DNA of 64,000 nucleotides, from assembly GCA_038254115.1 (NCBI GenBank), contig JBBSGK010000001.1:2713-66712 (forward strand), read 5' to 3'. This DNA comes from Candidatus Levyibacteriota bacterium (lineage in GTDB: Bacteria; Patescibacteriota; Microgenomatia; Levybacterales; UBA12049). The position numbers and the translations under genes were made by a program. Each line of letters opens with the position of its first letter. The first letter of the stretch is position 1. Below are positions 30,039 to 37,046 of this stretch, in pieces. Below the pieces are notes generated by a model. The model saw only the letters and a program-made list of their open reading frames with translations, made no database searches and was not told the DNA's origin.

Positions 30039-31340
30039 ATGGCAAAAGAAAAAAAGCAAGTTAATGTTGGATTAATTGGTTTTGGTAATATCGGAAAAGG
30101 CGTTGTAAGATATTTCCAAGAAGGACATGGAAAAAACTTCAATATCCATCTCAAGCGGATTGCAGTCCGGGACCTTACTAAGCAAAGAGAAATAGATGTT
30201 GAGCTGACGGACAAAGTTGATGATATTTTTAACGATCCGGAAATAGACATCGTCGTTGAGTTGATTGGAGGGCTGGATCCTGCAAAGCAATATATAATCA
30301 AATCCATAGAAAAAGGAAAAAGTGTAGTTACTGCCAATAAAGCAGTTATGTCGCGTTTTACTAAAGAATTATTTGACGTTGCACGGGAAAACAATGTGGA
30401 TCTTGCTTTTGAAGCGGCTGTTGGAGGTGGAATACCCATAATTAATACCCTTAACCGTTACAAGGGAGAAAAAATTGAGCGGGTTCTAGGAGTATTAAAT
30501 GGAACTACAAATTTTGTTCTTACGCAAATGGAACAGGGATTGGACTTTAATACCGCTATAAAAATAGCACAAGAAAAAGGATTTGCCGAAGCTGATCACA
30601 TTCTCGATACAGGCGGGTTTGATACCAGGGACAAGTTGGCACTTATCGCCTCCCTTATTTTTAATTCGCAAGTTGATCCCGAAAAGATCCAAACACACGG
30701 AATAACAGAAATTACTCCTGTGGATATTGACTTTGCGGATAAATATAAAGTAGCGGAAGGAGGACGGGGATATGCGATAAAACTCCTTGCAATAGCCGAG
30801 CGGCGAGACGGTGATGTTGAGTTAAGTGTTGGTCCTGCTTTGATAAGCCGTGATCATCCGTTGGCATCAATAAGGGATGAGGTCAATGCAGTTTACGTTG
30901 AGGGAGAGCTTGCCGGTCCTCAAACATTCTCCGGTAAAGGTGCCGGTACAAATCCGACTTCAAGCGCAGTTGTTTCAGATATTCTCCGGTTGGCAAACAA
31001 TATGCAAAGGGGAGTTGTGGATGAATTGCCGGATCTTAATTCAAAAGTCAGCTACATAAAACACGAAAAGATGGAACAAAAGGGTTATATACGTGTTAAT
31101 CTCAAGCATCAACCCGGCAGCCTTTATGCGGTTACAGGGATTCTGTCTCAGCATGGACTAAATATTGATGATTCAATTCAGAGAGGAGATTACGGTTACG
31201 ATATAGGAAAGGTCAGGTTTGTTCCTGATATTATTACACTCGAACCGGCCCCGGTCAAGGTCATAGAGAAAGTATTAGCCGAGTTGAGTAAATCGGATAG
31301 AGTGGACGGGGATCCGCTTTTTATGAATATTGAGGAGTAA
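30039..31340 (+). CDS. hom: homoserine dehydrogenase with a C-terminal ACT domain
   Basis: …VNVGLIGFGNIGKGV… and …LNGTTNFVLTQME… are the Hom catalytic domain. The C-terminus is ACT-like. Confidence 0.8.
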   Translation: MAKEKKQVNVGLIGFGNIGKGVVRYFQEGHGKNFNIHLKRIAVRDLTKQREIDVELTDKVDDIFNDPEIDIVVELIGGLDPAKQYIIKSIEKGKSVVTANKAVMSRFTKELFDVARENNVDLAFEAAVGGGIPIINTLNRYKGEKIERVLGVLNGTTNFVLTQMEQGLDFNTAIKIAQEKGFAEADHILDTGGFDTRDKLALIASLIFNSQVDPEKIQTHGITEITPVDIDFADKYKVAEGGRGYAIKLLAIAERRDGDVELSVGPALISRDHPLASIRDEVNAVYVEGELAGPQTFSGKGAGTNPTSSAVVSDILRLANNMQRGVVDELPDLNSKVSYIKHEKMEQKGYIRVNLKHQPGSLYAVTGILSQHGLNIDDSIQRGDYGYDIGKVRFVPDIITLEPAPVKVIEKVLAELSKSDRVDGDPLFMNIEE

Positions 31341-31354
31341 GTTATTGAAAATCT

Positions 31355-32875
31355 ATGTTTTGGGCTGATGAAGTTGCTGAAAAATTAAAAAAAAGAAAAT
31401 TGCCTCTTGAATGGGTTGATGATATGAAGACGCCTTCGGGAAGAATTCACGTTGGGTCTTTGTTTGGCGTTGTTTTTCATGACTTAGTCTATAAAGCCTT
31501 GAAAGACCAAGGTGTTAAAGCAAAGTACACCTACGTTTTTGAAAATCACGATCCGATGGATGATATCCCATCATATTTGCCCCGGGAGAAATTTGAGAAG
31601 TATCTCGGTATGCCTCTTTTTAAAATTCCATCACCTGTAAAAGGTTTTGAAAACTTCGCCCAATATTATGCCTTTGAATTTAAAGAAACGTTTAATAAGC
31701 TCGGGTCTGATCCCGAAATAATCTGGACAAAGGATTTGTATACATCAGGCAAAATGAATAAAGGAATTAAACGCGTTCTGGATAGTTCAGAAGAAATTAG
31801 GAAAATCTATAAAGAAATGTATAAAAAAGAGATTGCAACTGATTGGTATCCGTTTCAGGTTTATTGTGAGAAATGCGGAAAAGTTTCAACAACCCGGGTT
31901 TATAATTGGGACGGGGAATTTGTTTATTACCGTTGTCCTGTTGCCGCAACAAAATGGACTAAAGGATGTGGAAATGAGGGGAAAACATCACCATTTAGTG
32001 ATGAAAAAGGTATGAAAGGAAAAATGCCTTGGAAAGTTGAATGGCCGGTAAAGTGGCAGGCAATTGGTGTGACGGTTGAGGGAGCGGGTAAAGACCATAT
32101 GAGTCGTGGGGGGTCGCACGATTTGGCAACGCAAGTTGCAGAACGAGTGCTGAAGTGCCCTGTTCCATATCCGGTCAGTTACGAATTTATGTTGATAGGT
32201 GGCCGGAAAATGTCTTCATCAAAAGGTCATGGTTTTGCGGCAGGAGATATATTGGAAATACTTCCTCCTGATTTAGCCCGGTTCTTGATAGTAAAAATGG
32301 ATATTAAACAACAGACAAATTTTGATCCGACTGAAAAAGATACTGTGCCAAAATTATTTGATGATTACCAAAAAGCAGCAGACGCTTACTTCGATAAGAT
32401 TGATAAGAATTTGGCAAGAGTTTTTGAACTGTCGCAAGTTGGTGAAATTAAAAAACCGCCAACTGTAAGATTTTCCGTTCTTGCCCAGTGGGTGCAGATG
32501 CCAAATATGGCGGATAAGATTAGGGAAGAGGGTTTGGAAGAGTGGGTAAAATATGCAAAAGTATGGCTTGAAAAATACGCGCCTGAATCGGAAAAGTTTG
32601 AGCTGCAAGAAGCTTTGCCAGAAGCAGTAAAAGACTTAACAAATAAGCAAAAAGAATTATTAAAAAAAATCTCAGCAGAGATTGATAGAAAATGGGATCC
32701 TGAAGAATTTCAGACACGGATTTATGAGATAGGTAAAGAATTGGGATTAAACGGTAAGGAAACATTTGCCGCAATCTACTTATCGCTTCTTGGAAAAGAC
32801 CACGGACCAAAGGCAGCATGGCTTATTTTGTCAGCCGGCAAAAAGTTTATAAAAAAAAGATTTAATGAATTTTAG
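31355..32875 (+). CDS. lysK: lysyl-tRNA synthetase, class I (archaeal-type LysRS-1)
   Basis: It has the HIGH-type motif …SGRIHVGSL… and the KMSKS-type motif …KMSSSKG…. Its length and overall pattern match class I LysRS rather than class II. Confidence 0.8.
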   Translation: MFWADEVAEKLKKRKLPLEWVDDMKTPSGRIHVGSLFGVVFHDLVYKALKDQGVKAKYTYVFENHDPMDDIPSYLPREKFEKYLGMPLFKIPSPVKGFENFAQYYAFEFKETFNKLGSDPEIIWTKDLYTSGKMNKGIKRVLDSSEEIRKIYKEMYKKEIATDWYPFQVYCEKCGKVSTTRVYNWDGEFVYYRCPVAATKWTKGCGNEGKTSPFSDEKGMKGKMPWKVEWPVKWQAIGVTVEGAGKDHMSRGGSHDLATQVAERVLKCPVPYPVSYEFMLIGGRKMSSSKGHGFAAGDILEILPPDLARFLIVKMDIKQQTNFDPTEKDTVPKLFDDYQKAADAYFDKIDKNLARVFELSQVGEIKKPPTVRFSVLAQWVQMPNMADKIREEGLEEWVKYAKVWLEKYAPESEKFELQEALPEAVKDLTNKQKELLKKISAEIDRKWDPEEFQTRIYEIGKELGLNGKETFAAIYLSLLGKDHGPKAAWLILSAGKKFIKKRFNEF

Positions 32876-34191: not shown

Positions 34192-35034
34192 ATGAAAAAA
34201 ATATTTATTATCCTTGTCTCAGCTCTTATTCTTGGAATTTTGTTTTTTGTTCTTTTTCAATATTTTATTAAATCCCATTCTCAAAAAGGCGCTTTGCAGG
34301 TAACATCCGCTCCTGAAAGTAAAGTTTATCTGAACGATAAATATTTGGGACAGACTCCGCTTTGTAAATGTGAGGCAGTGGACATGCAGCAATCAGGCGA
34401 TTATATCATCCGTTTGGTGCCAAAAGATAAAAATTTATCAGAGTTTCAGGAGAAAATAAAAATTTCAGAAGGAGTTTTGACAGTGATTGACAGAAAATTT
34501 GGCAAGGACTCTGATTCTTCAGGAAGTGTAATTTCATTGACACCACTTGATGACAAGAAGGCAACAGAGCTTCTGGTTGTTTCAATTCCTTCTAAATCAA
34601 ATATTTTTCTTGATAATAATCAGATTGGAGATACCCCAATACTCTACAAAAATCCTACAGAATCAGACCACGTTTTACAGGTGGGCAAGGAAGGATATAA
34701 AGAAAAAACGGTTAGGATCCGCACACCGCTTGGTTATAAGCTTACAGTTACAATATATTTAAGTACAAGTGGGGAGCCGGTGGAAGCATCAAAATCAGCA
34801 TCAGCTGCTCCAACCGCTTCTCCACCTCCGGCACTTGGCAAGGTAGCTATTCTTGAGACGCCAACAGGCTTTTTACGGGTAAGAGATAGCGCGTCAATTG
34901 GTTCCTCGGAGATTTCAAGAGTGGCGTCACCCGACGTATATGAAGTGGTCAGCGAGCAGGCAGGGTGGTTTCAAATCAAACTGAAAGATGGGAAAGTAGG
35001 CTGGATCAGTAGTCAGTATGCGAGGAAGCAGTAA
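34192..35034 (+). CDS. membrane-anchored protein with two PEGA domains and a C-terminal SH3b (SH3_3) domain
   Basis: It has an N-terminal TM anchor. The PEGA-like segments are …SKVYLNDKYLGQTP… and …SNIFLDNNQIGDTP…. The C-terminus …GWFQIKLKDGKVGWISSQYA… is SH3b-like. Confidence 0.6.
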   Translation: MKKIFIILVSALILGILFFVLFQYFIKSHSQKGALQVTSAPESKVYLNDKYLGQTPLCKCEAVDMQQSGDYIIRLVPKDKNLSEFQEKIKISEGVLTVIDRKFGKDSDSSGSVISLTPLDDKKATELLVVSIPSKSNIFLDNNQIGDTPILYKNPTESDHVLQVGKEGYKEKTVRIRTPLGYKLTVTIYLSTSGEPVEASKSASAAPTASPPPALGKVAILETPTGFLRVRDSASIGSSEISRVASPDVYEVVSEQAGWFQIKLKDGKVGWISSQYARKQ

Positions 35035-35036
35035 AT
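34984..35036 (+). repeat. direct repeat copy 1 (3' end of the PEGA/SH3b gene, including its stop codon)
   Basis: A 26-nt exact core GGCTGGATCAGTAGTCAGTATGCGAG (34999-35024) has imperfect flanks repeated at 35445-35507. Confidence 0.8.
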
Positions 35037-35078
35037 GAAAGCATTAATTGATTAATTCTGACAAACTTTAAATTGCTT

Positions 35079-35378
35079 CTATTTTTGTTGTCTTTCTGGC
35101 TGGCCAACTTGGACTCTGTATAGTTGTAGCTTTACGGGAACGCCTTCTTCTAATTTGCCGCCTGCTGAATTTCTATCTCTTCTACCTCTTCGAGAAAATT
35201 TAGATATTAATCGAGGCAGTATATTATTTGCTTCTAACACACCTTTTCCGTTGGGTTCTAAGCCTACTTCTTCATCGTTGTCACTATTTGCAGGTTTCGC
35301 TAAATATTCTGCTCGCGGTATCGGTGGAGAGAAAAGTCCAGGAAAACCAAAAATTGGATTGGCGTGTTCACGTCCCAT
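35079..35378 (-). CDS. hypothetical ORF inside the repeat-flanked segment, possibly a remnant
   Basis: It is a 99-aa ORF with no recognisable motifs. An 81-aa plus-strand ORF overlaps it. Neither is convincing. Confidence 0.2.
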   Translation of the reverse strand: MGREHANPIFGFPGLFSPPIPRAEYLAKPANSDNDEEVGLEPNGKGVLEANNILPRLISKFSRRGRRDRNSAGGKLEEGVPVKLQLYRVQVGQPERQQK

Positions 35379-35444
35379 AATGATATTATATCATAACTAA
35401 AATGAAAAACAATAGACAATATCGTAATAACTAGGGTTAAAATA

Positions 35445-35507
35445 AATTAAAATTGAAAGAAGGTAGAACAGGCTGGATCAGTAGTCAGTATGCGAGAAAG
35501 CAATAAT
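35445..35507 (+). repeat. direct repeat copy 2; a relic reading frame encodes NKLKLKEGRTGWISSQYARKQ-stop, a diverged duplicate of the upstream gene's C-terminus
   Basis: The exact 26-nt core lies at 35471-35496. Translation of 35441-35506 matches the last 20 aa of the 34192..35034 product, with synonymous or conservative changes outside the core. Confidence 0.75.
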
Positions 35508-35550
35508 TCTCATAGCTATTTGATTTGCTGTCTGATGATATAATTCCCAC

Positions 35551-36105
35551 GTGAGAAAAGAAACAGAGCATCCATTTGTTGAACCAAGGTCTTTTTTAGA
35601 GAGGCCATATGAAAAAATAGAGATAGGACGAATGCCGATTCCGCCGGAAATAGGTTTTCTTCGGTGGTTAACCACGAGAGTGGACGAAACTGGTTTAGTT
35701 TTAATAAAACCTGCTTGGTATATTATTAAAGCAAGCGATCGAGGTGTGCCTACATGGACAATGCCTCATTATGCTGATGTATTAGTTCATTCTCATCCTC
35801 AAGAAGAAGATGAAAAACAGAATGATAGCTCCGTTCCAAGTCTTCGAGATTTTATTAATAGTTCACCTACAGCAAAGAATTTCATAGTCTCTTATAGAGG
35901 TATTACTCAGTACGGTCCAATAGAAGAAGAAGTAGCGAGATATGTTCGAGATGTTGTGATATTTCAAGAGCATTACAGATTTGGCAGAGGCAAGGAGAGG
36001 GAATATCTAAAGTACTTAGATGAGATTAATGCAGAATTTATAGTTCACCGATGGGAGGACATAAACGAAACAAAATTAAATAAATTGTTTGATAATAAAA
36101 TCTAG
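35551..36105 (+). CDS. hypothetical protein with a possible JAMM/MPN+-like metal-binding motif
   Basis: VLVHSHPQ…SVPSLRD resembles HxH…SxxD, but the spacing is longer than the canonical motif. Confidence 0.4.
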   Translation: MRKETEHPFVEPRSFLERPYEKIEIGRMPIPPEIGFLRWLTTRVDETGLVLIKPAWYIIKASDRGVPTWTMPHYADVLVHSHPQEEDEKQNDSSVPSLRDFINSSPTAKNFIVSYRGITQYGPIEEEVARYVRDVVIFQEHYRFGRGKEREYLKYLDEINAEFIVHRWEDINETKLNKLFDNKI

Positions 36106-37046
36106 GCTTTGATGAAGTAGATTATAAGCACTACAAGTAATCCCCAGATGACAACAGAGGTTAGAAGTGCGCGGTCTGAGAAAAGAACCCGCTCAGGTGA
36201 CTCTCCTTCATGCTTTTCATAGATCCGCTGCAGGTAACGCATTATTCCATACACAACAGGTATGATAGTGATCATAAGCCATTTGCGCTGTAGATATGTC
36301 CCCAGAATATCTGCGGGAAGAAGATCTGTTGTGAACTGGCGCCCACGTGGATTTTCAATAAAGGTAAACAAGGAATAAAAGACGAATGCGGATGTTGCAA
36401 ATATAGAAATATAAGCATCTAGCAATTTTTCTGTATAGTGTGAAAGTGTTTTTCTGGTTGTTGAAATTTTTAAAGCGGTATAATTCGCCAATAGTGTAAG
36501 CTCTGATCTGCGTTTGCCGATAGCCAGAAAGAGAGAGAGCGCAATTGTGGTCATAAGAAGCCAGGCCGAGATATGAAAACCGCTTACAACTTCTCCAGCC
36601 AGAACGCGGAGAATATATCCCCCGGCAAGTGTCAGGATGTCGATAATCTCAATTTGCTTTAGAAAGGCCGAATAGGACAGGTGTAATAGGAAATATACGA
36701 CAGTTATTACAAAAAATGCAGGTGCAATGAAATAGCTCAAAAAGATGGAACTTAATGCCAGTAAAGCAGCGATGAGCACGGCTGTTTTTATGGATATATT
36801 TTCTTGAGCAAGAGGCCTGTATTTTTTAAACGGATGAAGTCTATCTTTTTTAACGTCAAAAATATCGTTAGTTACATAAATAGCGCTACTCATCGCGCAA
36901 AACACAATAAAGCCATAGAAAACTTTTTGAAAGATCAGAGGATTGAAGAGCTGCCCGCTAAATATCAAGGCAGCAAAAATAGCAAAATTTTTTATCCATT
37001 GACGAGGACGTAGAAGCCGTAAATTTTCACGAAACATGTTATTCAT
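36102..37046 (-). CDS. UbiA-family prenyl/phosphoribosyl transferase (decaprenyl-phosphate phosphoribosyltransferase/DPPRS-like)
   Basis: It has about 8 TM segments and the first Asp-rich motif NDIFDVKKD (NDxxDxxxD) in …YVTNDIFDVKKDRLHP…. Confidence 0.7.
   Translation of the reverse strand: MNNMFRENLRLLRPRQWIKNFAIFAALIFSGQLFNPLIFQKVFYGFIVFCAMSSAIYVTNDIFDVKKDRLHPFKKYRPLAQENISIKTAVLIAALLALSSIFLSYFIAPAFFVITVVYFLLHLSYSAFLKQIEIIDILTLAGGYILRVLAGEVVSGFHISAWLLMTTIALSLFLAIGKRRSELTLLANYTALKISTTRKTLSHYTEKLLDAYISIFATSAFVFYSLFTFIENPRGRQFTTDLLPADILGTYLQRKWLMITIIPVVYGIMRYLQRIYEKHEGESPERVLFSDRALLTSVVIWGLLVVLIIYFIKA

What the first reader, a model, noticed from the sequence alone, without database searches (positions are those of the whole stretch)
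34984..35507. att-like direct repeat duplicating the 3' end of a protein-coding gene, with the peptide preserved at the amino-acid level
A 26-nt exact core is repeated 472 bp apart. Translating the second copy gives NKLKLKEGRTGWISSQYARKQ-stop. This is the same C-terminal peptide as the upstream PEGA/SH3b gene (…KLKDGKVGWISSQYARKQ-stop), with synonymous or conservative codon differences outside the core. This is the signature of site-specific integration into the 3' end of a gene, where the element supplies a surrogate 3' end and the displaced original stays in frame-less isolation. The enclosed segment is only about 440 bp with one doubtful ORF, so it is probably a decayed remnant. The downstream 35551..36105 JAMM-like ORF could be cargo if the right boundary lies further on.
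Basis: seen in the sequence. Interest (0 to 1): 0.55.

Follow-up and report, generated by a model that had tools for sequence, protein, structure and literature searches.

The report
Stranded gene tail marks DNA insertion
A 472-bp piece of foreign DNA was inserted at the very end of a conserved cell-envelope gene of an uncultivated Levybacterium, leaving a second, orphaned copy of the gene's last 20 codons; the same scar recurs in other lineages at this gene-swapping hotspot, but no integrase is in sight.

Summary
The repeat is real. A 27-nt exact block lies inside a 62-nt in-frame repeat (84% identity), 472 bp apart. It is the only such repeat in the window. An independent Logan assembly reproduces it.

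Copy 1 is the functional 3' end of a PEGA+SH3b gene. Copy 2 is an orphan with an in-frame stop just upstream and no other PEGA remnant.

Of 147 Levybacteria loci, 110 have the PEGA stop within 40 nt of the convergent UbiA stop, which is the empty site. Twenty-seven carry unrelated cargo there: HicAB, Phd/ParE, BrnT, PIN, Fic, methyltransferases and others.

Four other lineages also have a stranded PEGA 3' fragment downstream of cargo, of variable length. In L123 the stranded copy matches another lineage's PEGA end better than its own.

No recombinase, hairpin site or free attP was found.

Best reading (0.5): homology-dependent additive insertion with 3'-end displacement, as in rhs and T6SS arrays, at a horizontal-transfer hotspot. 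Integrase-mediated integration is the rival (0.25).

The mechanism is not shown, and the JAMM label is not supported. This is a new variant of a known kind, of moderate interest.

The parts
34192..35034 (+). PEGA + bacterial SH3 (SH3_3) gene, 280 aa. It is conserved and syntenic across Candidatus Levybacteria. Its 3' end is the recurrent junction.
   Evidence: Pfam PF08308 at 4e-13 and PF08239 at 1.7e-9. There are 1174 homologues. Synteny is Ham1 - 149-aa membrane protein - PEGA - [slot] - UbiA(-).
34973..35034 (+). Repeat copy 1. It is the functional last 20 codons plus stop of the PEGA gene (QIKLKDGKVGWISSQYARKQ*).
34998..35024 (+). 27-nt block identical in both copies (copy 1 side). It is the candidate crossover or conversion tract. 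It carries synonymous codon choices seen in no other Levybacteria PEGA end: the other 161 ends differ from it by at least 4 positions.
35035..35444 (.). Inserted segment X, 410 bp. It has no counterpart in any related locus and no match in phage, plasmid, Rfam, Pfam, NCBIfam, PHROGs or PADLOC.
35079..35378 (-). orf99m, a 99-aa ORFan inside X. Its codon-usage score is 0.124. That equals the highest of 29 spurious ORFs (mean -0.08) and lies inside the range of real genes (0.03-0.24). A TGnTATAAT box lies 6 nt upstream of the ATG. Whether it is a real gene is unsettled.
   Evidence: Only itself is found among 5.8 billion proteins. AT and GC skew favour the minus strand here.
35385..35393 (-). Extended -10-like box (TGATATAAT on the minus strand), 6 nt upstream of the orf99m start. 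This is a leaderless-type arrangement.
   Evidence: Read from the sequence. Neighbouring weaker promoter-like matches were reported.
35445..35506 (+). Repeat copy 2, the stranded PEGA 3' end (KLKLKEGRTGWISSQYARKQ*). An in-frame TAA at 35438-35440 precedes it. It has no start codon and no upstream PEGA sequence.
   Evidence: (nhmmer E=1.3e-8, profile positions 32-89)
35470..35496 (+). 27-nt block identical in both copies (copy 2 side).
35536..35544 (+). Extended -10-like box TGATATAAT, 6 nt upstream of the GTG start of the 184-aa ORF.
   Evidence: Read from the sequence.
35551..36105 (+). ORF184, older or separate cargo of the same slot. It belongs to a real, small protein family of unknown function with a confident predicted fold. 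Its stop overlaps the UbiA stop by 4 nt (CTAG).
   Evidence: 67 cluster representatives, aligned from residue 2. Homologues at 44-46% identity lie in unrelated contexts. The AF2 model has pLDDT 93.6. No PDB match was found.
36102..37046 (-). UbiA-family prenyltransferase gene, the convergent right border of the slot.
   Evidence: Pfam PF01040. It is present and convergent in 147 of the related loci.

Best explanation
The repeat is the scar of an additive, homology-dependent acquisition of DNA at a horizontal-transfer hotspot.

The hotspot. In Candidatus Levybacteria the PEGA/SH3b gene and the UbiA gene normally end tail-to-tail within a few bases. This junction is a slot where unrelated accessory genes come and go. 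The conserved last ~60-100 nt of PEGA serves as the homology that incoming DNA pairs with.

The event in this genome. A DNA molecule carrying a PEGA 3'-end segment from another allele, plus the 410-bp segment X, recombined with the resident PEGA 3' end. The likely routes are:
- a single, Campbell-type crossover inside the 27-nt identical block;
- one homologous end and one microhomology end, that is, homology-facilitated illegitimate recombination (HFIR).

The outcome. One 3' end now completes the gene, so the protein is unchanged. The other is pushed 472 bp downstream and stranded in front of the older cargo, ORF184.

No element-encoded integrase is needed. Host RecA-type recombination on taken-up DNA would do it. 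Recombination between the two copies would delete X again and restore an intact gene.

What is shown: the insertion, the empty site, the hotspot, the recurrence, the absence of a recombinase, and the foreign-allele origin of the stranded copy in L123.

What is inferred: the type of recombination, the direction (which copy is native in this genome), and the DNA-uptake route.
For: Empty site and hotspot:
- 110 of 147 loci have a PEGA-UbiA gap of 40 nt or less.
- 27 loci carry more than 150 nt of mutually unrelated cargo.
- Cargo includes HicA/HicB, Phd/ParE, BrnT, PIN, Fic, an SNF2-sigma fusion and a Trp-repressor-like protein. PADLOC also flags the Fic and the SNF2 protein.
- The close relatives differ from the window. 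L003 is empty and L001 has an unrelated 176-aa ORF.

Recurrence with variable geometry. A profile of the PEGA 3' end finds second copies only in the window, L123, L108, L025 and L036:
- L123, after hicBA;
- L108, after a Fic gene with its own promoter;
- L025, after a 1274-aa SNF2 gene;
- L036, a partial copy after a Trp-repressor-like ORF.
The stranded fragment starts about 61, 66, 63, at least 97 and 35 nt before the stop in the window, L123, L108, L025 and L036 respectively.

Born divergent:
- All copy pairs are only 84-90% identical.
- In L123 the stranded copy differs from the genuine PEGA end of lineage L138 by 4 of 66 positions and from L072 by 7 of 66, but from its own gene's end by 10 of 66.
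- Its downstream cargo, ORF198, sits next to a genuine PEGA end in L072 at 90-100% identity, against about 82% for the flanking genes.
- L123 is therefore two slot alleles stacked.

Microhomology. L131 is a relative of L123 with PEGA-hicBA. It ends its cassette in TTCAAAATAAAAA, which matches the PEGA sequence where L123's stranded copy begins.

Non-uniform identity:
- In the window there are 0 of 27 differences in the block against 8 of 26 in the left arm (Fisher p=0.004). The run-length test gives P=0.019.
- L025 has a 31-nt exact block at a different position, P=0.024.
- Both blocks are close to the 23-27 bp minimum identity reported for efficient RecA-dependent recombination in E. coli (own knowledge: Shen and Huang 1986).

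No recombinase and no folded site.

Precedents:
- rhs C-terminal displacement by a circle plus a single crossover, with core fragments of variable length (PMC2935791).
- T6SS effector-immunity arrays by HFIR, with scarless replacement the commoner outcome (PMC5361080). Here too, 22 of 27 occupied slots have no scar.
- Patescibacteria carry competence and homologous-recombination genes, and Saccharibacteria are naturally competent (PMC10633639, PMC12455944).
Against: - The donor of X is unknown. X and orf99m have no relative anywhere, and ORF184 homologues are never found next to PEGA. Allele stacking is therefore shown only by analogy with L123.
- A foreign allele sharing a 27-nt block that no other sampled Levybacterium has, while differing by 31% just upstream, is awkward for plain homologous recombination. 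It needs either a donor already adapted to this lineage or later gene conversion. An exact core with diverged arms is the classical look of attL/attR.
- The left edges in three cases fall within about 5 nt of each other (-61, -63, -66). A specific site would also explain this.
- A 472-bp circle or fragment is a very small recombination substrate.
- Recombination and competence genes of this organism were not examined here.
Confidence: 0.5

Rival explanations
1. An integrative element used a tyrosine or serine recombinase to integrate at an attB in the PEGA 3' end. It carried a surrogate 3' end in its attP, as e14 does in icd. It has since been whittled down to 410 bp, or it is a non-autonomous cassette mobilised in trans. 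The 27-nt block is the att core.
For: - There is an exact 27-nt core flanked by diverged but homologous arms, and the peptide is kept in both copies.
- Empty sites exist.
- The left edges of the stranded copy cluster at -61, -63 and -66 in three lineages.
- Cargo elsewhere is typical of mobile elements: TA pairs, Fic, and an IS in L036.
- The e14/icd precedent has a 163-bp duplicated icd' (PMC6379469).
Against: - No recombinase is present in the insert, in the conserved neighbourhood, among 10 mid-size window ORFs, or within 3-4 kb of PEGA in 163 loci. For tyrosine recombinases this rests on a crude box-II motif scan; serine recombinases were not specifically scanned.
- The exact block is at -37..-10 in the window but at -97..-66 in L025, and it is absent in L123 and L108. 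There is no common core.
- No copy of the core was found in viral or metagenome contigs, and no match of X in phages or plasmids.
- In L123 the stranded copy and its cargo are simply another lineage's slot allele.
- Five cases would each need independent decay down to a single cargo gene.
Confidence: 0.25
2. In-situ origin. A short tandem duplication of the PEGA 3' end arose by replication slippage or a staggered break. X was inserted between the copies, or the duplication arose as a long target duplication during the insertion. The unselected copy then drifted.
For: - Copy 2 is closest overall to the genome's own copy 1: 10 differences, against at least 13 to any other lineage. The two share lineage-specific synonymous codons in the block.
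- In L108 and L123 the differences are spread evenly.
Against: - Differences in the window are not uniform (P=0.019). The left arm of copy 2 is as far from copy 1 (8 of 26) as from other species (minimum 5 of 26).
- L123's stranded copy is closer to other lineages than to its own gene.
- No fresh, near-identical pair was seen among five cases.
- No known transposition mechanism gives 60-100-nt target duplications, and X has no transposase or terminal inverted repeats.
Confidence: 0.1
3. Copy 2 is kept because it now does something. It lies in the 172-bp divergent control region between orf99m and ORF184. It could act as a promoter or operator spacer, or be translated as a small peptide.
For: - Copy 2 lies between two TGnTATAAT boxes, each 6 nt upstream of a start codon.
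- The 21-codon frame is still open.
Against: - Copy 2 has no start codon. The frame opens directly after a stop codon, and none of its codons is ATG, GTG or TTG until TTG at 35453.
- No Rfam family matches and there is no stable fold.
- The L108 copy is frameshifted and the L036 copy is truncated. Retention therefore does not need function.
- This reading explains retention, not origin.
Confidence: 0.05
4. Metagenome assembly chimera. Two strains or molecules were joined wrongly through the shared 27-mer.
For: The source is a metagenome-assembled contig. Repeats are classic mis-join points.
Against: - Two assemblies agree base for base across both copies: the window, and the Logan contig L164 at 100% over 4789 nt.
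- The exact repeat is only 27 nt, shorter than the k-mers normally used. Logan uses k=31 (own knowledge). Each junction is therefore spanned by unique k-mers.
- The same architecture occurs in four other assemblies from other studies.
Confidence: 0.02

Closest known systems
rhs 'C-terminal displacement' and orphan toxin/immunity arrays (Jackson et al. 2009, PMC2935791; V. cholerae T6SS effector-immunity arrays, Kirchberger et al. 2017, PMC5361080)
   Same: - An intact gene is followed by stranded fragments of its own conserved 3' region, each still attached to older downstream cargo.
- The fragments are of variable length.
- The new material comes from other lineages.
- Most exchanges are scarless replacements, and additive ones are the minority.
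- No dedicated recombinase is involved. The proposed mechanisms are a circle plus a single homologous crossover, or HFIR.
   Different: - The anchor gene is not a polymorphic toxin. It is a conserved PEGA/SH3b envelope protein whose sequence does not change.
- What is swapped is not the gene's tip but separate downstream genes (TA pairs, Fic, ORFans).
- The stranded piece is only 35-100 nt.
- The host is an ultra-small CPR bacterium.
- Arrays here have at most one stranded copy.
Prophage or island integration into the 3' end of a protein-coding gene with a surrogate end (e14 and phage 21 in E. coli icd; summarised in PMC6379469)
   Same: - Direct repeats that duplicate the gene's 3' end.
- The protein is preserved with synonymous or conservative differences.
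- There is an identical core.
- The empty site is found in relatives.
- Excision would restore the gene.
   Different: - There is no integrase, no excisionase and no phage genes.
- The insert is 0.4-3.9 kb, not tens of kb.
- There is no shared core among independent insertions.
- No attP-bearing element was found.
Core-gene-flanked HGT hotspots without mobile-element genes (Oliveira, Touchon and Rocha 2017; own knowledge, not retrieved here)
   Same: - One interval between two conserved genes concentrates unrelated accessory genes across a clade.
- Defence and TA genes are over-represented.
- Turnover is attributed to homologous recombination in the flanks.
   Different: That work is statistical and mostly concerns cultivated phyla. 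Here the scar of the joining event is preserved at nucleotide level, in Levybacteria.
Integron gene cassettes (attC) and Acinetobacter pdif modules
   Same: Small promoter-plus-gene units, often TA pairs, stacked next to a fixed point, each followed by a repeated about 60-nt sequence.
   Different: - There is no intI and no Xer-type palindromic site.
- The repeat does not fold into a hairpin.
- The repeat is a copy of a host gene's coding end.

Membership tests
Integrase-mediated site-specific integration into a gene 3' end (e14/icd type) | Direct repeats (attL/attR) with an identical core flanking the insert | tested here: met
   A 27-nt exact block sits inside a 62-nt repeat.
Integrase-mediated site-specific integration into a gene 3' end (e14/icd type) | The insert supplies an in-frame surrogate 3' end, and an unoccupied attB exists in relatives | tested here: met
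   Both copies encode ...GWISSQYARKQ*. 110 of 147 loci are empty.
Integrase-mediated site-specific integration into a gene 3' end (e14/icd type) | A tyrosine or serine recombinase encoded in or next to the element | tested here: not met
   - The insert is 410 bp with one ORFan and no family hit.
- The syntenic neighbours carry no recombinase domain.
- 10 mid-size window ORFs contain no recombinase.
- No box-II motif was found in the window or in 163 loci. The motif scan is crude and does not cover serine recombinases.
Integrase-mediated site-specific integration into a gene 3' end (e14/icd type) | The same crossover core is used by independent insertions | tested here: not met
   The exact block is at -37..-10 in the window and at -97..-66 in L025. 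L123 and L108 have only 12-13-nt runs.
Integrase-mediated site-specific integration into a gene 3' end (e14/icd type) | A free element carrying attP | tested here: not met
   The core is absent from viral and metagenome contigs. X is absent from the phage and plasmid collections. The searches were for exact or near matches only, so a diverged attP would be missed.
Homology-dependent additive displacement (rhs C-terminal displacement / HFIR-type stacking) | An intact gene followed by a stranded fragment of its own conserved 3' region, attached to older cargo | tested here: met
   Seen in the window, L123, L108, L025 and L036.
Homology-dependent additive displacement (rhs C-terminal displacement / HFIR-type stacking) | Stranded fragments of variable length among events | tested here: met
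   The fragments start at about -61, -66, -63, at least -97 and -35 nt.
Homology-dependent additive displacement (rhs C-terminal displacement / HFIR-type stacking) | The stranded fragment and the functional end derive from different alleles or lineages | tested here: inconclusive
   Met in L123: 4 of 66 differences to L138 against 10 of 66 to its own gene, and ORF198 is 90-100% identical to L072. In the window, the left arm is as far from copy 1 as from other species, but the core is shared only with copy 1.
Homology-dependent additive displacement (rhs C-terminal displacement / HFIR-type stacking) | Scarless replacement at the same locus is the commoner outcome | tested here: met
   22 of 27 occupied slots show no second copy.
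Homology-dependent additive displacement (rhs C-terminal displacement / HFIR-type stacking) | The host has DNA uptake and RecA-type recombination | not tested
   Known for Patescibacteria in general (PMC10633639, PMC12455944). Not checked for this genome.
Integron cassette / attC | An imperfect-palindrome site that folds as single-stranded DNA, with intI nearby | tested here: not met
   Folding z-scores are -0.5 to +1.3 on both strands and in three loci. No integrase was found.
Transposon target-site duplication | Short identical duplication, terminal inverted repeats and a transposase | tested here: not met
   The repeat is 62 nt and 84% identical. X has no terminal inverted repeats and no transposase.
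Xer/dif-dependent integrative element (IMEX) | Location at the replication terminus, with a dif-like 28-bp site with palindromic arms | tested here: not met
   GC skew keeps its sign across the slot. The core contains a direct repeat (TCAGTAGTCAGTA), not an inverted one.
JAMM/JAB (MPN+) metalloprotease, for ORF184 | MPN fold with an E...HxHx7Sx2D zinc site | tested here: not met
   - There is no Pfam hit.
- The conserved residues are H82, P96, S97 and D100, but the spacing is 14 rather than 7.
- The confident AF2 model has no significant PDB match by Foldseek; the best E-value is 0.9.
- The family profile has no PDB hit.

The most novel reading that the evidence does not exclude
Levybacteria, and perhaps other CPR bacteria, have an integrase-independent, or trans-acting, cassette-capture system. 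The last about 65 nt of a conserved envelope gene would act as a reusable docking site. Small self-promoted modules (TA pairs, Fic, ORFans) each carry a mimic of that gene tail. They are inserted, stacked and excised without ever damaging the gene. Functionally this would be an integron-like platform built from a coding sequence. The clustering of three left edges at -61 to -66, the stop codon of the cargo lying 5-6 nt from the repeat in L108 and L123, and the exact 27-nt and 31-nt blocks are not excluded by anything found here.
Probability: 0.12. Interest if true: 0.7.

Novelty: new variant of a known kind. Interest (0 to 1): 0.4.

Why it matters
CPR/Patescibacteria have tiny genomes, few recognisable mobile elements and few cultured members, so how they acquire accessory and defence genes is poorly documented.

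This locus gives a nucleotide-level record of one route. A single tail-to-tail gene junction is used again and again across a whole candidate phylum, mostly for toxin-antitoxin and defence-type genes. Joins made through the conserved end of a housekeeping-like gene leave a datable scar.

If the mechanism is host homologous recombination on taken-up DNA, it would show that natural competence shapes the accessory genome of these organisms without dedicated mobile-element machinery. The stranded tails could then serve as markers to find such events in metagenomes.

If a trans-acting recombinase is responsible instead, it would be a new cassette system.

In either case the finding is a scar of past recombination rather than a new molecular machine. 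Its general interest is moderate.

Tried and rejected
- Copy 2 as the end of a hidden or decayed PEGA paralogue: rejected. Only residues 261-280 match.
- X as a known RNA: no Rfam match.
- X or its ORFs as a known protein, TA, phage or defence family: nothing in Pfam, NCBIfam, PHROGs or PADLOC.
- X in phage or plasmid collections: no match.
- The exact core in viral or metagenome contigs: no match.
- Close relatives found with the single protein in genome contigs: none. The alignment query worked, but the nearest relative is only 76-79% identical. No sister strain with or without X could be compared.
- attC-like hairpin: rejected.
- Terminus/dif location: rejected.
- ORF184 arriving together with copy 2 from a donor in which PEGA is followed by ORF184: no such locus among 163. 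ORF184 homologues sit in unrelated contexts with different upstream genes and no PEGA-tail remnant.
- A similar 3'-end duplication of ftsZ next to ORF184 homologues: none.
- A clear recombination tract in L123 bounded by copy 2: only partly seen. ORF198 is 90-100% identical to L072, but the boundaries are not sharp.
- JAMM assignment of ORF184: not supported.
Full report
THE OBSERVATION

Shuffles expect none. The identical run is 27 nt. It sits in a 62-nt in-frame repeat, 34973-35034 versus 35445-35506, with 10 differences; both copies end in TAA. It is the only direct repeat of at least 35 nt within 6 kb in the whole window.

Copy 1 is the end of a 280-aa PEGA + SH3_3 gene. Copy 2 is preceded by an in-frame TAA and reads NKLKLKEGRTGWISSQYARKQ*. 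Nothing else in 35035-35560 resembles PEGA. Copy 2 is therefore neither the end of a longer gene nor a decayed paralogue.

An independently built Logan contig is identical over 4789 nt spanning both copies.

CONTEXT

The PEGA protein has more than 1000 homologues. The genomes that hold them are Candidatus Levybacteria (Microgenomates, CPR).

The neighbourhood is syntenic: aspartate-semialdehyde dehydrogenase, homoserine dehydrogenase, class I LysRS, Ham1, a 149-aa membrane protein and PEGA on one strand. UbiA, a family-4 glycosyltransferase and PMT_2 proteins converge from the other strand.

- In the 74%-identical relative L003 the PEGA stop is 4 nt from the UbiA stop.
- In the 76% relative L001 an unrelated 176-aa ORF sits between them.

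I fetched 160 further loci. Among 147 with both genes:

| PEGA-UbiA gap | Loci |
|---|---|
| 40 nt or less | 110 |
| 41-150 nt | 10 |
| more than 150 nt | 27 |

The cargo in the 27 occupied slots is almost never shared between lineages. It includes:
- HicA/HicB, Phd/ParE, BrnT and PIN toxins;
- a Fic protein that also matches SoFic-type defence models;
- methyltransferases, a kinase, a histidine phosphatase and a Trp-repressor-like protein;
- one IS.

The junction is thus a clade-wide hotspot. The window's 1067 bp between PEGA and UbiA (X, copy 2 and ORF184) is lineage-specific content of that slot.

RECURRENCE OF THE SCAR

An nhmmer profile of the last 90 nt of PEGA finds a second copy in five places only.

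| Locus | What precedes the stranded copy | Fragment starts (nt before the stop) |
|---|---|---|
| Window | 410-bp X with an ORFan | about 61 |
| L123 | hicB-hicA pair with its own promoter; the hicA stop is 5 nt before the copy | 66 |
| L108 | Fic gene with a perfect TTGACA-17-TACAAT promoter; the copy is frameshifted | 63 |
| L025 | 1274-aa SNF2-sigma70 fusion on the other strand; the locus is cut by its end | at least 97 |
| L036 | Trp-repressor-like ORF before it and an IS after it | 35 (partial copy) |

- The copy pairs are 84-90% identical.
- No case holds a recombinase.
- None of the other 22 occupied slots has a detectable second copy.

WHAT DISTINGUISHES THE MODELS

1. Distribution of differences.
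   - In the window the left arm differs at 8 of 26 positions, the block at 0 of 27 and the right arm at 2 of 10.
   - Fisher's test of arm against block gives p=0.004, and the run-length test gives P=0.019.
   - The block carries synonymous codons that none of 161 other Levybacteria PEGA ends has (minimum 4 differences).
   - The left arm of copy 2 is no closer to copy 1 than to other species.
   - L025 has a 31-nt exact block, but at the left edge of the repeat (P=0.024). L123 and L108 have none.
   - A single shared att core is therefore not seen. Exact blocks of about the size needed for RecA-dependent exchange occur at varying places.

2. Origin of the stranded copy.
   - In L123 it differs from the genuine PEGA end of L138 by 4 of 66 positions and of L072 by 7 of 66, but from its own gene's end by 10 of 66.
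   - The cargo to its right, ORF198, lies directly after a genuine PEGA end in L072 and is 90-100% identical there. The flanking PEGA and UbiA genes are about 82% identical.
   - The cargo to its left, hicBA, follows PEGA in L131.
   - L123 is therefore two alleles of the slot stacked one after the other, the second keeping only the tail of its PEGA gene.
   - In L131 the hicBA cassette ends in TTCAAAATAAAAA. This is a near match to the PEGA sequence where the L123 stranded copy starts, and it suggests a microhomology join.

3. Recombination machinery and sites.
   - No integrase domain occurs in the insert or the neighbours.
   - No tyrosine-recombinase box II motif occurs in the window or in 163 loci.
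   - The repeat does not fold.
   - GC skew does not flip at the slot.
   - No attP-like copy of the core was found in viral or metagenome contigs.
   - X has no phage or plasmid match.

BEST EXPLANATION

The best explanation is a homology-dependent additive insertion with displacement of the resident 3' end.

- DNA carrying a PEGA tail plus cargo pairs with the chromosomal PEGA tail.
- A single crossover of a circular or concatemeric molecule, or one homologous plus one microhomology join, adds the cargo.
- One tail then completes the gene and the other is stranded.

[quoted passage not shown] It is also the logic proposed for T6SS effector-immunity arrays, where HFIR is invoked and scarless replacement is commoner (PMC5361080). 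Patescibacteria carry competence and recombination genes, and Saccharibacteria are naturally transformable (PMC10633639, PMC12455944).

I give this reading 0.5.

Its weak points:
- The donor of X is unknown. orf99m is an ORFan among 5.8 billion proteins.
- ORF184 homologues are never next to PEGA.
- A foreign tail sharing a lineage-specific 27-mer needs either later gene conversion or a donor already resident in this population.
- Three left edges cluster within 5 nt of each other.

RIVAL EXPLANATIONS

- Integrase-mediated integration with a surrogate end, as with e14 in icd (PMC6379469): 0.25. It accounts for the exact core and the clustered edges. It fails on the recombinase, on a common core and on attP.
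- In-situ duplication followed by drift: 0.1. It fails on the non-uniform differences and on L123.
- A function for copy 2: 0.05.
- An assembly chimera: 0.02.

THE CARGO IN THE WINDOW

- X has no family, RNA or database match.
- orf99m (35079-35378, minus strand) has a codon-usage score of 0.124. This equals the highest of 29 spurious ORFs and lies within the range of real genes. Strand composition favours the minus strand. A TGATATAAT box lies 6 nt upstream of its ATG.
- ORF184 has the same box at the same distance from its GTG. It belongs to a real family of about 67 clusters.
- ORF184 conserves H82, P96, S97 and D100 and gives a confident AF2 model with pLDDT 93.6.
- That model has no significant PDB neighbour, and the family profile has no PDB hit. 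The JAMM label is not supported.

VERDICT

The integrase mechanism is unproven and less likely than recombination through the conserved gene tail.

The kind of scar is known from polymorphic-toxin loci and from prophage att sites. New here are the setting (a CPR phylum), the non-toxin anchor gene, the TA and defence cargo, and the recurrence.

Interest is 0.4, as a new variant of a known kind.

Noticed in passing
window 31240-32330 (class I lysyl-tRNA synthetase gene 31355..32875): Nucleotide identity to the orthologues in L001 and L003 falls to 40-60% over the 5' two-thirds of the gene. The flanking genes and the gene's own 3' third are 70-85% identical. The protein is 506 aa, against 496 aa in the relatives. 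This looks like a mosaic or xenologous replacement of part of lysS.
   Followed up: no
window 35551-36105 (ORF184): - It is a small conserved family of about 67 clusters at 50% identity, found in unrelated genomic contexts.
- The nearly invariant residues are H82, P96, S97 and D100 (HSHP...PSxxD).
- The AF2 model is very confident (pLDDT 93.6).
- There is no significant PDB match by Foldseek and no PDB hit by sequence profile.
- It may be an undescribed fold or enzyme. The JAMM reading is not supported.
   Followed up: partly
window 35385-35393 (-) and 35536-35544 (+): Both genes flanking copy 2 have an identical extended -10 box, TGATATAAT, exactly 6 nt upstream of the start codon, and neither has a Shine-Dalgarno sequence. 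This suggests leaderless transcripts. The two boxes form a 10-nt inverted repeat around copy 2. The L108 Fic cassette shows TACAAT 6 nt before its second ATG.
   Followed up: no
L108 3850-3912: The Fic cassette carries a perfect sigma-70 promoter (TTGACA-17 nt-TACAAT) overlapped by an inverted repeat, AATTCACG...CGTGAATT, that looks like an operator.
   Followed up: no
L025 4877-8701 (-): A single 1274-aa protein fuses an SNF2 helicase (SNF2-rel_dom, Helicase_C) to sigma-70 regions 2 and 4. It has weak matches to ZorD and BrxH defence helicases. It occupies the slot between the two PEGA tails.
   Followed up: partly
L123 1715-2311 (-), L072 and L162 (same gene, split by a frameshift): A 198-aa protein with no Pfam or PADLOC hit is 90-100% identical at nucleotide level between lineages whose flanking core genes are about 82% identical. 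This suggests recent lateral exchange of this cargo.
   Followed up: partly
L131 3865-4142: The hicBA pair at the slot is decayed. hicB is truncated and most of hicA is deleted, while the cassette's 3' boundary sequence is kept.
   Followed up: no
window 36102-36105: The stop codons of ORF184 (+) and UbiA (-) overlap in the palindrome CTAG. There is therefore no intergenic space at the right edge of the slot and no room for a third repeat copy.
   Followed up: no
L167 14-4561 and L168 1-1213: ORF184 homologues lie downstream of ftsZ, directly in L168 and after two unannotated genes in L167. This hints at another variable slot, but no duplication of the ftsZ 3' end was found.
   Followed up: partly
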